Source: a virus (taxonomy: Duplodnaviria > Heunggongvirae > Uroviricota > Caudoviricetes). From it: a stretch of DNA of 45,520 bases. Positions 6,695 to 9,201 of the stretch are shown piece by piece. Made by a program: the position numbers and the translations under genes. Each line of letters starts with the position of its first letter. Positions within the stretch are counted from its first letter, which is position 1. The notes beneath the pieces are model-generated. The model searched no databases, was not told the origin of the DNA, and worked only from the letters and a program-made list of their open reading frames with translations. The stretch is taken from IMG/VR virus record IMGVR_UViG_2579778748_000005, one strand, 5' to 3'.

Positions 6695-8449
6695 TTATAA
6701 AAACGCGTCGCACTCGTCTGTTGTTATTGCGTTAGTCTGCGTTACCCCCTTAACTTTCCGCGTAATATATTCATGTCCGTAAACTTTTGCGGCAGGCTTC
6801 ATAGCCTTGCCAAAGTCATTTACGTTTAGCGGTTTGCTCCTGCCTGCGTACGCCATAAACGCCAGATAGACGCGGTAAAGGCTGTTTCTGGTCGTGTACT
6901 TCACTGAATCGCCACCGCCGCCCATCATCAGGCCGCGTGCTTCCTCCAGAAAATTCAGGAACTGGCAAAACTCAATAACCGGATCCGTCTGTTGCTTTAT
7001 TGCCAGTGCTTCATCACCGTCACGCTGTTCCAGTAGTAAAGCCCGTGCTTTCTCAGAGTCGGTAAAGTTCGCCAGCAATCGGCGGATAATGACAGGGATT
7101 TCAGCCGCAATCTTTTCCGGTAGCTCCCTGTCTTTTTCGGCCTCACTGACGATATTGTCGAAACGGAAAATCACGCGACGACGTGCCACACCTCCGGCCC
7201 GTTCGGTGAATATCATCGGGTTGTTGTTGGTCGCCAGCACCACCGCCCTGATTACCGCCGTAAAACGCTTTTCATATTTCGGGTTAATTTCCACGGGGTC
7301 ACCGCCCGTGATTTTCTTGATGCCCGTTCCTTCGCCTGTATATTTCGGCTGGTCAGCCAGGACGATAAGACGACTCCCGACAACCTGCGCACGTCCACCA
7401 GCATCATCAAGCGATGTCATTTCAGCGCTTACCGTGTTCTGTTTCCCTGCCAGAAGGCTGGCTATGTGCGTGAATGTACTTTTACCGCTCCCGCCGTCTC
7501 CGGTGGCCTCAATAAACATCTGCCAGTCGTACCGGTTCGCCATAATCATGTACAGCGCGGCACATATACGCATCATCTTGCGCGGGTCTTTTCCGGCTGC
7601 GTGCTTAAGCCATTTATGAAAGTTTGGCGCGTTATCGCGGATGTTCTCCCCTGGTGCTGGTGGCGTGTACTCAATGCCGTTGTGCGTGGTGATCCAGTTC
7701 TCCGGCGTGTGCGGGGAAAATTCCCCCGTTTTCAGGTCAAGCGCACCATTGGCGAACGGCAGCAAATCGCCGGACGGCTCGCCCATTGGTTCGGCAATAA
7801 CTTTTAACGCTTCCACGGCGTTATTGATTACGCGCTTGCTGAAAGTGGCCCTGTGCTCTGAATAGATCGCCACCATTTCGCGGCTAAGTTCCATTGTGCT
7901 GACCGGACACCATACCCCGCCGCGCCATACGTGAACGATTTCACTTTCAGGATGTACGCAAACGCCATCAAAGCGATCGGCAAGCAGCTGCGCGCGCTCA
8001 CTGTCCGCCATCTGCGAAAGTTGCGCCTTTTGCTTTACCGGAAGCTCAATGACCAGACCATCAGAAAGATTCTGGCGCTCACGGGCCAGATATTCGCGCC
8101 AGTTCTCCACCTTCTGACCGTGCATACCATCAGGGTAAAAATTTGCGTCCTGAATATCTGCCGCCGCCAGCTTCTGACCAATCTTTTTGGTCTCCACTAA
8201 ATCCAGTTCTCCGGCCTGGTACAGCCTTACGCGCTTTTTCCCATCCGGAACAATTTTCAGCGCATCAAGTTCGGCAAGCTGATTTGGCCCAAGCCACACA
8301 GGCGGCACATTATCGCCGGATGCGGGGCCGTCCTGCTCCTGCCACTGTTTTGCATGTGACCACGCATCACTACCCGCGAAAATAATTACCTCTGTGTCTT
8401 TGTGTTTTATTCCGCGTGGTTGTTTTTTTACGTTCGGTGCCAGTTTCAT
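6695..8449 (-). CDS. Primase-helicase (P4 alpha / D5-type NTPase), 584 aa
   Basis: Walker A GDGGSGKST, size and P4-like context; recalled family features. Confidence 0.9.
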   Translation of the reverse strand: MKLAPNVKKQPRGIKHKDTEVIIFAGSDAWSHAKQWQEQDGPASGDNVPPVWLGPNQLAELDALKIVPDGKKRVRLYQAGELDLVETKKIGQKLAAADIQDANFYPDGMHGQKVENWREYLARERQNLSDGLVIELPVKQKAQLSQMADSERAQLLADRFDGVCVHPESEIVHVWRGGVWCPVSTMELSREMVAIYSEHRATFSKRVINNAVEALKVIAEPMGEPSGDLLPFANGALDLKTGEFSPHTPENWITTHNGIEYTPPAPGENIRDNAPNFHKWLKHAAGKDPRKMMRICAALYMIMANRYDWQMFIEATGDGGSGKSTFTHIASLLAGKQNTVSAEMTSLDDAGGRAQVVGSRLIVLADQPKYTGEGTGIKKITGGDPVEINPKYEKRFTAVIRAVVLATNNNPMIFTERAGGVARRRVIFRFDNIVSEAEKDRELPEKIAAEIPVIIRRLLANFTDSEKARALLLEQRDGDEALAIKQQTDPVIEFCQFLNFLEEARGLMMGGGGDSVKYTTRNSLYRVYLAFMAYAGRSKPLNVNDFGKAMKPAAKVYGHEYITRKVKGVTQTNAITTDECDAFL

Positions 8450-8745
8450 TTCTTACCCCTGAATACGTTAAGCATCTTTTTTATTTCCTGAATATTGGCG
8501 CGTGCTTTCTCCCTGCTGGTGGGCACGTTACGCGGTACGGCCTGCACCAGAGAAAAATCACGATCGAACTGATAAACAGGCATCACGCAATCATATTCGT
8601 AGCCTTCACGACGGTAGGTTACGCGCCGTTCCTCCACGCCCTTAATCATTACCGTGCCGCCGTACTGGTCGCGGTAAATATCACCGCGCATGAATTTAGT
8701 GCGAGTTTTGCCACTGGCAGTTAAGCCAGAATATTTAAGTTTCAT
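8446..8745 (-). CDS. Hypothetical protein, 99 aa, coupled to primase
   Basis: GGAGA SD; stop overlaps the primase start (ATGA). Confidence 0.6.
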   Translation of the reverse strand: MKLKYSGLTASGKTRTKFMRGDIYRDQYGGTVMIKGVEERRVTYRREGYEYDCVMPVYQFDRDFSLVQAVPRNVPTSREKARANIQEIKKMLNVFRGKK

Positions 8746-8750
8746 TATTT

Positions 8751-8978
8751 TTATTCTCCGGTGTGGGGCGCTTTATTATTCTCGTGAATTGCCATAGCCT
8801 TATTGAGTTCATCAATAACAGGTGTCAATAATGTCTGAACAGCGGCAAACATTAATGATGAATGATCTTCGCCACCTTCCGGCACTTCAATTAATTTAAT
8901 TAACAACGCATTCATTTCGCGTGCTTTAATTAATGCGTTTTCAGAGTGGATTAATACTTCAAAAGGGATTTTATGCAT
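8751..8978 (-). CDS. Hypothetical protein, 75 aa
   Basis: ATG at 8978 with GGGAGA SD; AT-rich coding DNA. Confidence 0.5.
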   Translation of the reverse strand: MHKIPFEVLIHSENALIKAREMNALLIKLIEVPEGGEDHSSLMFAAVQTLLTPVIDELNKAMAIHENNKAPHTGE

Positions 8979-9201
8979 CACAAATTTTCTCCCTTATTCT
9001 TTTAATGTCCTCATTAAGGATGTCTGTAACTTTTATCAGCGAGTTTTTGGCAATTATTTTTATTGTTTTAAGTTTTCTTTTGTCGTGCTCCGACTGTGAT
9101 TTTCTCTCCATAATCTCCACCATGTGGGTAACATCAACGAGCGCACGTATCAGTATTTGCATTGCTTCTTCTGCTGCGTCCGGTGTGGTTTTATTGTGCA
9201 T
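8971..9201 (-). CDS. Hypothetical protein, 76 aa
   Basis: ATG at 9201 with AGGGAGA SD; overlaps the next gene by 8 nt. Confidence 0.5.
   Translation of the reverse strand: MHNKTTPDAAEEAMQILIRALVDVTHMVEIMERKSQSEHDKRKLKTIKIIAKNSLIKVTDILNEDIKRIREKICDA

What the first reader, a model, noticed from the sequence alone, without database searches (positions are those of the whole stretch)
8446..9201. Three coupled, AT-rich small ORFs upstream of the satellite primase
Seen: three overlapping 75-99 aa ORFs with good SD sequences and lower GC than the flanks, in the position that in P4 holds helper-manipulating factors (epsilon). Inference: candidates for helper derepression or interference.
Basis: inference. 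Interest (0 to 1): 0.4.

Follow-up and report, generated by a model that had tools for sequence, protein, structure and literature searches.

The report
RgdR and two small PICI genes
The three small genes are real and sit in the early operon of a known type of E. coli phage satellite (an EcCICFT073-like PICI): the largest is the already described small regulator RgdR, and the other two are satellite-only helical proteins of unknown function, so the finding is mostly ordinary.

Summary
Three minus-strand ORFs (99, 75 and 76 aa) lie at 8446-9201 with Shine-Dalgarno sites. All three are under purifying selection (dN/dS 0.20-0.37).

The island is a close variant of the prototype Gram-negative PICI EcCICFT073, at the same phoQ/roxA site.

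- ORF-A (8446-8745) is RgdR (DUF4222). It is 93% identical to the characterised O157:H7 ECs1581, a basic, non-specific DNA-binding regulator that activates LEE1 and represses motility, and is reported in all E. coli PICIs analysed.
- ORF-B (acidic) is uncharacterised. It directly preceded an RgdR homolog and a replicase in 45 of 45 related loci.
- ORF-C is a confident helical hairpin from a very narrow family. It is optional (26 of 45 loci) and sits where P4 has epsilon.

None of the three matches P4 epsilon, ORF151 or Cnr by sequence or profile comparison. No defence model or solved-structure relative was found.

The helper-derepression idea therefore rests on position alone, and only for ORF-C. 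Verdict: a new member of a known kind, low to moderate interest.

The parts
8446..8745 (-). ORF-A = rgdR (99 aa, pI 10.05; DUF4222 small DNA-binding regulator with the RGD motif at residues 20-22)
   Evidence: Matches PF13973 at E=5e-24 (84 bits against a cut-off of 27) and phrog_285. 93% identical to O157:H7 ECs1581 and 86% to CFT073 c1493. The AF2 model has a disordered N-terminus, a 5-strand SH3/KOW-like barrel and a C-terminal helix (pLDDT 77). Function is described in PMC3378721.
8751..8978 (-). ORF-B (75 aa, pI 5.4; phrog_2196 family; function unknown; invariant upstream neighbour of rgdR)
   Evidence: phrog_2196 at E=3.6e-10. 120 homolog clusters, essentially all Escherichia/Shigella. 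dN/dS 0.20. Directly followed by an RgdR homolog and then a replicase in 45 of 45 IMG/VR loci. A 36%-identical homolog overlaps the primase start in vB_KppS-Ant. Nucleotide homology to CFT073, Shigella and O157 islands resumes at 8776/8776/8760, within its last codons.
8971..9201 (-). ORF-C (76 aa, pI 8.8; phrog_5146 family; helical hairpin; optional cassette in the slot where P4 has epsilon)
   Evidence: AF2 predicts two long helices, 7-34 and 38-75 (pLDDT 87). Only 24 clusters in the 5.8-billion-protein search and 8 representatives at E<=1e-3 among 1.84 billion. No hit in 50,697 phage records. Present in 26 of 45 loci that carry ORF-B. 37% identical to the EcCICFT073 73-aa ORF.
9191..9391 (-).
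   Evidence: NF033153 at 63.6 bits, cut-off 25. phrog_29966 and phrog_1743. Annotated in RefSeq. Its stop overlaps the ORF-C start by 11 nt.
9495..9523 (-). Sigma-70-like promoter candidate (TTGACG-17-TAACAT) upstream of the Icd-like gene
   Evidence: Consensus scan only, 9 of 12 matches. Not evidence of function. AlpA-dependent expression of downstream genes was shown for EcCICFT073 in PMC6092414.
6695..8449 (-). pri-rep replicase (584 aa; D5_N + DUF5906 + Pox_D5); start overlaps the rgdR stop (ATGA)
   Evidence: Pfam and PHROG matches. 94% identical to the EcCICFT073 primase.
6450..6690 (.). Origin-like iteron field (TGTCTACC / GGTAGACA, at least 12 copies in both orientations) immediately 3' of pri
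   Evidence: Repeat families D1-D6 and I1-I14. PICI origins lie 3' of pri-rep (PMC6092414).
10391..10579 (-). AlpA activator (62 aa)
   Evidence: PF05930 at E=5e-17. 93.5% identical to EcCICFT073 AlpA and 45% to P4 Vis.
9585..9890 (+). YlcI/YnfO-family gene transcribed divergently from the Icd-like operon
   Evidence: NF041551 at 63.2 bits. phrog_6522 at E=2e-63. Annotated in RefSeq.
10944..12173 (-). Tyrosine integrase next to roxA
   Evidence: RefSeq annotation. 97.5% identical to the EcCICFT073 integrase.

Best explanation
The three ORFs are genuine genes of the early (regulation and replication) operon of an EcCICFT073-type phage-inducible chromosomal island inserted between phoQ and roxA. 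On the minus strand the operon reads: Icd-like, ORF-C, ORF-B, ORF-A, pri-rep, then the origin. The short overlaps and Shine-Dalgarno sites mean the genes are probably translated as one coupled run whenever the operon is transcribed. In the prototype island that happens when a helper lambdoid phage switches on the AlpA activator.

ORF-A is RgdR. This is a 99-aa, very basic protein with an SH3/KOW-like barrel. Published work shows it binds DNA without sequence specificity, activates the LEE1 (ler) promoter and lowers motility. It is reported in all E. coli PICIs analysed.

ORF-B is an acidic small protein that always sits immediately upstream of rgdR. I infer that it works with RgdR or modulates it, or else acts on the replicase that follows.

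ORF-C is a small helical hairpin that is present in only some islands and is swapped between them. I infer that it is an optional protein-binding effector occupying the slot where P4 carries epsilon. Its target is unknown.

Shown here: gene reality, the identity of ORF-A, the island type, the synteny, the satellite restriction of the families, and the lack of homology to the P4 factors. Inferred: the AlpA-driven co-expression in this particular island, the ORF-B/RgdR partnership, and any role for ORF-C.
For: Gene reality: dN/dS is 0.20-0.37, all three are RefSeq CDS, and the Shine-Dalgarno sites and overlaps are as described.

Island type, as amino-acid identity to EcCICFT073 at the same chromosomal site: integrase 97.5%, AlpA 93.5%, primase 94%, SSB 100%, PerC 99%, capsid 99%, decoration protein 100%. 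The origin-like iterons lie 3' of pri.

ORF-A as RgdR: PF13973 at 84 bits; 93% identical to ECs1581 with R20-G21-D22 intact; pI 10.05 against the published 10.09. The activities are in PMC3378721. [quoted passage not shown] The barrel fold has weak KOW/SH3-like matches.

ORF-B and RgdR as a pair: 45 of 45 loci show ORF-B, then an RgdR homolog, then a replicase, across at least two replicase types. E. coli genome annotations show DUF4222 upstream of five differently named replicase families. Median pI is 5.0 for the ORF-B-like set and 10.2 for the RgdR-like set.

ORF-C as an optional, swapped cassette: it occurs in 26 of 45 loci. It is 37% identical to its EcCICFT073 counterpart although the flanking backbone is about 95% identical at the DNA level. 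O157 OI-51 carries three other small ORFs in the same interval.

Satellite restriction: tblastn against 50,697 phage records gave 1, 1 and 0 hits, and both hits are satellite-sized records.

AlpA-dependent expression of downstream genes was shown for EcCICFT073 (PMC6092414).
Against: No experiment addresses ORF-B or ORF-C in any island.

The ORF-B/RgdR partnership rests on adjacency and opposite charge only. rgdR alone on a plasmid was sufficient for the published phenotypes, so ORF-B is not needed for them.

The documented RgdR targets (LEE1, motility) are host genes. Its role in the satellite life cycle has never been tested.

Allele identities reassort gene by gene, for example ORF-C 99% with ORF-B 77% in L098, and ORF-A 99% with a different replicase in L096. 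There is therefore no co-variation signal for any pair.

The promoter is only a consensus match. A 1-kb stretch with an antisense YlcI-like gene separates alpA from the operon in this island.
Confidence: 0.65

Rival explanations
1. One reading: one or more of the ORFs, most plausibly ORF-C, is an epsilon-like or Ant-like antirepressor. It would bind the repressor of a resident lambdoid helper prophage and derepress it, or otherwise interfere with the helper.
For: ORF-C sits directly after the Icd-like gene and is coupled to it, as epsilon is in P4. P1 immI has the gene order c4-icd-ant1/2 (PMC6906374); that Ant is an antirepressor is established knowledge.

The slot holds many unrelated small helical families in different satellites: phrog_5146, 2512, 1478, 3672, 35285 and epsilon. 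That pattern is expected of specificity determinants.

ORF-C and epsilon share the N-terminal M-x-N-K-x-x-P.

Genes upstream of pri were never tested for interference.
Against: No PF25738 match. hhalign aligns only 11 residues (probability 8.5%). A BFVD fold search gave no significant hit, and no P4 or epsilon-named protein appeared among the 50 matches listed.

ORF-C is absent from 19 of 45 related islands.

In EcCICFT073 the helper induces the island rather than the reverse, and interference maps to c1503.

The shared N-terminus coincides with the stop/start overlap signal.
Confidence: 0.15
2. Replication accessories: RgdR and/or ORF-B help or limit origin use by the replicase, as P4 Cnr does for the alpha protein. 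They would bind DNA at the iterons or bind the replicase.
For: rgdR overlaps the replicase start (ATGA) and always lies directly upstream of a replicase. RgdR binds DNA. In vB_KppS-Ant the ORF-B homolog overlaps the primase start directly. P4 cnr occupies the equivalent position.
Against: The same RgdR and ORF-B alleles occur with unrelated replicase types, and divergent alleles occur with the same replicase. That argues against a specific protein-protein fit.

There is no similarity to Cnr/DUF5375.

RgdR has clear transcriptional phenotypes away from any island origin.
Confidence: 0.15
3. Anti-defence or host-takeover cargo: ORF-C, and perhaps ORF-B, are small early proteins that neutralise host restriction or defence systems, or host factors, when the island enters a new cell.
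For: The proteins are small and helical, in an early operon, AT-rich, and turn over rapidly by cassette exchange against a conserved backbone. These are typical features of anti-defence genes in mobile elements; this is an inference from general knowledge.
Against: No match to any PADLOC, Pfam or NCBIfam model, although those libraries hold few anti-defence families. ORF-B is invariant rather than accessory. No direct evidence exists.
Confidence: 0.1
4. The ORFs are chance open frames or decayed remnants with no product.
For: Only their short length, and the low GC of two of them.
Against: dN/dS is 0.20-0.37 across 10-15 distinct alleles. Length, order and overlaps are conserved in dozens of islands. 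Each has a Shine-Dalgarno site. Family HMM matches were found. The ORF-A family has a purified, active member.
Confidence: 0.02

Closest known systems
RgdR (ECs1581 of E. coli O157:H7 Sakai, OI-51/CP-933C; Flockhart et al. 2012, PMC3378721)
   Same: ORF-A has the same length (99 aa), is 93% identical, keeps the RGD motif at residues 20-22, and has pI of about 10. It sits in the same position immediately upstream of the island replicase, and the island uses the same chromosomal insertion site next to roxA.
   Different: There are seven substitutions. The downstream replicase in O157 is a DUF927 type, and that island is a capsid-forming type. The activity of this particular allele has not been tested.
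EcCICFT073 early operon (CFT073: Icd-like, four small ORFs, c1493/rgdR, pri; Fillol-Salom et al. 2018, PMC6092414)
   Same: Same island backbone and insertion site: integrase, AlpA, primase, SSB, PerC, capsid and decoration proteins are 93-100% identical. The operon logic is the same. ORF-C, ORF-B and ORF-A have counterparts there of 73 aa, 77 aa and c1493.
   Different: The counterparts of the Icd-like gene, ORF-C and ORF-B are only 45%, 37% and 41% identical. EcCICFT073 has two additional small ORFs (76 and 73 aa) in the interval. There is no nucleotide homology between window positions 9860 and 8776.
Satellite phage P4 left operon (vis, Ash/Icd-like 'cI' ORF, epsilon, orf151, cnr, alpha)
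   Same: The order of functions is the same: AlpA/Vis, an Icd-like domain, small coupled ORFs, then the replicase. Epsilon and ORF-C both start over the stop codon of the Icd-like ORF.
   Different: No sequence or profile similarity was found between ORF-C, ORF-B or ORF-A and epsilon (PF25738), orf151 or Cnr (DUF5375). No C4/CI-type RNA was detected. P4 alpha carries a primase domain that the 584-aa protein here does not match.
Phage P1 immI operon (c4 RNA, icd, ant1/2)
   Same: An Icd-family gene is followed by a gene whose expression depends on it. The upstream gene here matches the NCBIfam Icd-like model. The P1 gene order is given in PMC6906374.
   Different: No c4-type RNA was found. ORF-C is about 76 aa and unrelated to Ant. 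tblastn with the Icd-like protein does not reach P1.

Membership tests
RgdR / DUF4222 (PF13973) | Significant match to the DUF4222 profile | tested here: met
   ORF-A: E=5.3e-24, 84 bits against a gathering cut-off of 27, covering profile positions 2-53 of 53.
RgdR / DUF4222 (PF13973) | Full-length (99 aa) similarity to the characterised ECs1581, with a conserved core at residues 20-68 | tested here: met
   92 of 99 residues identical to the O157:H7 protein and 86% identical to CFT073 c1493. The core is invariant or nearly so in 34 aligned homologs.
RgdR / DUF4222 (PF13973) | RGD motif at residues 20-22 (R20 is needed for T3SS activation and DNA binding) | tested here: met
   R20-G21-D22 are present in ORF-A. 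Among 32 unique relatives only 13 have RGD; 13 have PGD and 5 have NGD. The requirement is described in PMC3378721.
RgdR / DUF4222 (PF13973) | Activates the LEE1 promoter, represses motility and binds DNA | not testable with these tools
   Published for ECs1581 and c1493. Here only the basic pI of 10.05 and an SH3/KOW-like barrel model are consistent with it.
P4 epsilon (PF25738, Derepression protein family) | Sequence or profile similarity to epsilon | tested here: not met
   No Pfam hit for any of the three at E<=0.1. BLASTP E>=1.6. hhalign of the ORF-C family against the epsilon family aligns 11 columns at probability 8.5%; ORF-B against epsilon gives probability 0.5%.
P4 epsilon (PF25738, Derepression protein family) | Gene lies directly downstream of, and overlaps, the Icd-like ORF of the left operon | tested here: met
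   True for ORF-C only (11-nt overlap, TAA inside codons 3-4, the same geometry as P4).
P4 epsilon (PF25738, Derepression protein family) | Binds the helper repressor and derepresses the helper prophage | not testable with these tools
   No complex prediction or experiment was possible. A BFVD fold search of the ORF-C model gave no match at E<=0.001.
P4 Cnr (DUF5375, PF17345) | Sequence or profile similarity to Cnr | tested here: not met
   No Pfam hit. hhalign of ORF-A and ORF-B against Cnr gives probabilities of 0.1% and 0.3%. The HMM search scored below zero.
EcCICFT073-type Gram-negative PICI | Integrase, AlpA activator and pri-rep followed by an iteron origin, all in one orientation, about 10-11 kb, at a specific attachment site | tested here: met
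   Gene map. Iterons at 6450-6690. Same site and 93-100% protein identity to EcCICFT073.
EcCICFT073-type Gram-negative PICI | Induction by a helper phage and transfer in helper particles | not testable with these tools
   Shown for EcCICFT073 with lambda and phi80 (PMC6092414). A lambdoid prophage lies 7 kb away in this window.
Known anti-phage defence systems (PADLOC) | Match to a defence-system protein model | tested here: not met
   No hit for any of the three ORFs or their neighbours at E<=0.1.

The most novel reading that the evidence does not exclude
ORF-B may be an obligate acidic partner of RgdR, acting as a chaperone, antagonist or specificity subunit. On this reading the pair is the island's own switch for transcription or replication rather than a virulence accessory, and the host LEE and motility effects are side effects, possibly through interference with H-NS-type silencing.

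The variable slot after the Icd-like gene (ORF-C here, epsilon in P4) would then hold a large, fast-evolving set of small effectors, each tuned to a particular helper or host target.
Probability: 0.2. Interest if true: 0.55.

Novelty: new member of a known kind. Interest (0 to 1): 0.3.

Why it matters
The block is not a new system. It is the early operon of a well-described satellite family, and its largest gene already has a name and a phenotype.

Two comparative results may be useful to people working on these islands.
1. rgdR is usually treated as a virulence accessory. Here it behaves like a core satellite gene locked to an uncharacterised acidic partner (ORF-B) and to the replicase.
2. 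The interval between the Icd-like gene and ORF-B is a cassette slot with rapid turnover, positionally equivalent to P4 epsilon.

Neither gene set has been tested for a role in the satellite life cycle. The experiments are simple, and the prototype island is genetically tractable.

Tried and rejected
- Homology to P4 epsilon, orf151 and Cnr. BLASTP, Pfam and PHROG, hhalign and custom HMMs were all negative. A weak hhalign hint of ORF-A against P4 orf151 (46 columns, E=0.005, probability 7%) was not confirmed by Pfam or by the broader HMM, so I dropped it.
- ORF-B and ORF-C as paralogs: no alignment.
- Defence systems: no PADLOC hit.
- Solved structures by sequence or profile: nothing below E=0.07.
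- Fold searches. The ORF-C hairpin gave only generic matches, best E=0.09 in BFVD. The ORF-A barrel gave weak KOW/SH3-like matches in PDB (best E=0.016) and small uncharacterised phage barrels in BFVD (best E=1.6e-4). This gives the fold class only.
- P1/P4-type C4/CI antisense RNA in the operon leader: no Rfam hit, even in an 1.8-kb search at E<=10.
- The genome-contig scan with the primase returned only 3 loci, so the comparative work used IMG/VR and E. coli genomes instead.
- Co-variation of alleles between neighbouring genes: identities reassort gene by gene, so no partner could be inferred that way.
- Literature on the small ORFs by locus tag: nothing relevant.
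Full report
**What is there**

The window is E. coli chromosome. It runs from phoQ (1-1461) through roxA, pepT and potAB, with a lambdoid prophage from about 19 kb onward.

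Between phoQ and roxA lies a roughly 10.8-kb island, with nearly all genes on the minus strand:
- integrase, 10944-12173
- AlpA, 10391-10579
- a YlcI/YnfO-family gene on the opposite strand, 9585-9890
- an Icd-like gene, 9191-9391
- the three ORFs of the finding
- a D5_N/DUF5906 primase-helicase, 6695-8449
- a small ORF, SSB and PerC
- a lambda-E-like capsid gene and a D-like decoration gene

**Checking the observation**

- ORF-C, 8971-9201, 76 aa
- ORF-B, 8751-8978, 75 aa
- ORF-A, 8446-8745, 99 aa

Each has a Shine-Dalgarno site: GGGAG, GGGAG and GGAG.

ORF-C overlaps ORF-B by 8 nt. ORF-B and ORF-A are separated by 5 nt rather than overlapping. ORF-A overlaps the primase start as ATGA. The Icd-like stop overlaps the ORF-C start by 11 nt. 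The coupled run therefore has five genes, not three plus one.

ORF-B and ORF-C are AT-rich (37-38% GC against 49-54% in the flanks). ORF-A, at 48%, is not.

The ORFs are real genes:
- RefSeq annotates all three.
- Pairwise dN/dS among 10-15 distinct alleles is 0.37, 0.20 and 0.36, against 0.18 for the primase.
- The C-B-A order is kept in 21 of 21 IMG/VR loci that carry ORF-C, across several integrase and replicase types.

**What the island is**

It is a near-identical variant of EcCICFT073, the prototype Gram-negative phage-inducible chromosomal island, and sits at the same chromosomal site.

| Protein | Identity to EcCICFT073 |
|---|---|
| Integrase | 97.5% |
| AlpA | 93.5% |
| Primase | 94% |
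| SSB | 100% |
| PerC | 99% |
| Capsid (c1499) | 99% |
| Decoration protein (c1500) | 100% |

A field of TGTCTACC iterons lies just 3' of the primase, where PICI origins lie.

Published work on EcCICFT073 shows the following:
- AlpA activates the downstream genes.
- Helper phages lambda and phi80 switch on alpA (PMC6092414).
- Interference with lambda maps to c1503. Only genes after the origin were tested one by one (PMC6739421).

The genes between alpA and pri have not been tested individually in the papers I read.

**ORF-A is RgdR**

ORF-A matches DUF4222 (PF13973, 84 bits against a cut-off of 27). A review led me to RgdR, a DUF4222 protein of O157:H7 island OI-51. The O157:H7 island sits at the same roxA-adjacent site, and its DUF4222 protein is 93% identical to ORF-A over all 99 residues, including R20-G21-D22. 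CFT073 c1493 is 86% identical.

Flockhart et al. (PMC3378721) reported the following:
- RgdR is 99 aa with pI 10.09.
- It activates the LEE1 promoter, and hence type III secretion.
- It represses motility.
- It binds DNA without specificity in gel shifts.
- An R20C variant loses both T3SS activation and DNA binding.
- c1493 behaves like ECs1581.

My AF2 model fits a small nucleic-acid-binding protein: a disordered basic N-terminus, a five-strand SH3/KOW-like barrel at residues 23-68 and a C-terminal helix (pLDDT 77). Fold matches are weak and generic, the best being an Spt5 KOW domain at E=0.016 in PDB and small uncharacterised phage barrels in BFVD.

Among 32 unique relatives, the residue before the invariant GD is R in 13, P in 13 and N in 5. 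The 'RGD' motif therefore defines a subset of the family, to which this allele belongs.

**ORF-B**

ORF-B belongs to phrog_2196. It has 120 homolog clusters, essentially all from Escherichia and Shigella, and one distant relative (36% identity) in a 16.5-kb satellite-like 'phage' record. There it overlaps the primase start directly.

In 45 of 45 analysable IMG/VR loci found with the ORF-B family, the gene is followed immediately by an RgdR homolog and then a replicase. The replicase is the primase type in 28 loci, a DUF927-like or other type in 16, and cut off in 1.

E. coli genome annotations show DUF4222 upstream of five differently named replicase families. Part of the 1.1-kb block matches in 1,299 of 5,426 complete E. 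coli genomes.

The corresponding ORFs of EcCICFT073 (77 aa) and O157 OI-51 (80 aa) are divergent members of the same superfamily. ORF-B-like proteins are acidic (median pI 5.0) and RgdR-like proteins are basic (median pI 10.2).

From this invariant adjacency I infer a functional link between ORF-B and RgdR, or between ORF-B and the replicase. This is inference only. rgdR alone was enough for the published phenotypes, and alleles reassort gene by gene.

**ORF-C**

ORF-C is a confidently predicted two-helix hairpin (pLDDT 87) from a very narrow family:
- 24 clusters in the 5.8-billion-protein search
- 8 representatives at E<=1e-3 among 1.84 billion proteins
- no hit in 50,697 phage records

It is optional. 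An ORF-C-family gene precedes ORF-B in 26 of 45 loci; in the others an Icd-like or other gene abuts ORF-B.

Against the otherwise roughly 95%-identical EcCICFT073 backbone there is no nucleotide homology between window positions 9860 and 8776. The Icd-like, ORF-C and ORF-B proteins are only 45%, 37% and 41% identical to their counterparts. Homology resumes within the last codons of ORF-B when compared with CFT073, Shigella and O157 islands alike.

Other islands place different small ORFs in the interval. O157 has three (phrog_3672, phrog_1478 and the ORF-B-like one) and CFT073 has four.

**Comparison with P4**

P4 reads vis, then an ORF with an Ash domain followed by an Icd-like domain, then epsilon, orf151, cnr and alpha. 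Epsilon starts over the stop codon of the Icd-like ORF with the same geometry as ORF-C.

As a statement about homology it fails. No Pfam, BLASTP, hhalign or HMM comparison links ORF-C, ORF-B or ORF-A to epsilon, orf151 or Cnr.

The shared M-x-N-K-x-x-P N-terminus of ORF-C and epsilon coincides with the stop/start overlap. In CFT073 it persists in the ORF-C family member even though the upstream gene there is different.

No C4/CI-type RNA was found in the leader.

**Verdict**

The block is the early operon of a known satellite type. One gene is the known regulator RgdR, and the other two are uncharacterised, satellite-restricted small proteins. It is best filed as a new member (allelic variant) of a known kind, of low to moderate interest.

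The most useful new points are the invariant ORF-B-RgdR-replicase arrangement and the cassette-like turnover of the slot that ORF-C occupies. Both are directly testable in the tractable EcCICFT073 system.

Noticed in passing
window 2331-2408 and 3066-3143 (segment 2409-3065 between them): 78-nt inverted repeats (91% complementary) flank a 657-bp segment carrying the ORF at 2463-2897. Relative to EcCICFT073 in strain CFT073, this segment is inverted at 99.4% identity. It may be an invertible segment at the distal end of the island.
   Followed up: partly
window 6450-6690: A dense field of TGTCTACC / GGTAGACA iterons (at least 12 copies, in both orientations) lies immediately 3' of the primase gene. 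This is the expected place for a PICI replication origin.
   Followed up: partly
window 9191-10333 (-) and 9585-9890 (+): A 380-aa open frame runs in frame into the Icd-like gene, while a well-supported YlcI/YnfO-family gene lies antisense inside it. RefSeq calls 9776-10333 a pseudogene. The N-terminus matches a 247-aa 'hypothetical protein' of O157 OI-51. Which strand is really coding here is unclear.
   Followed up: partly
window 9424-9454 (-) and 9495-9523 (-): The leader upstream of the Icd-like gene has a promoter-like site (TTGACG-17-TAACAT) and a GC-rich hairpin (CGCCCCG...CGGGGCG) without a T tract. No Rfam family matches, and in particular no C4/CI RNA as in P1 or P4.
   Followed up: partly
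window 3946-5001 and 3599-3934, compared with 34222-35250 and 35308-35655: The island's capsid and decoration proteins are 47% and 36% identical to those of the lambdoid prophage 30 kb away in the same window. In EcCICFT073, deleting these genes (c1499, c1500) affected neither transfer nor interference, so their role is still open.
   Followed up: partly
window 8760-8776: Nucleotide homology to three different related islands (CFT073, Shigella flexneri, O157:H7) resumes at almost the same point, the last codons of ORF-B (APHTGE) that contain the Shine-Dalgarno site of rgdR. This suggests a recurrent recombination boundary.
   Followed up: partly
window 17323-17526 and 18372-18469 (-): Two sub-threshold matches to the Rfam family IS009 (112.5 and 47.4 bits against a gathering score of 117) lie in the region between potB and the lambdoid prophage, next to tail-fibre-assembly pseudogenes.
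   Followed up: no
L002 (LR881103.1, 'Escherichia phage vB_KppS-Ant', 16.5 kb): This record is deposited as a phage, but it has integrase, an AlpA-like regulator, an Ash/Icd fusion, small ORFs and a primase, plus capsid, portal and terminase genes. It looks like a capsid-forming PICI. It is the only 'phage' record holding ORF-B and Icd-like relatives.
   Followed up: partly
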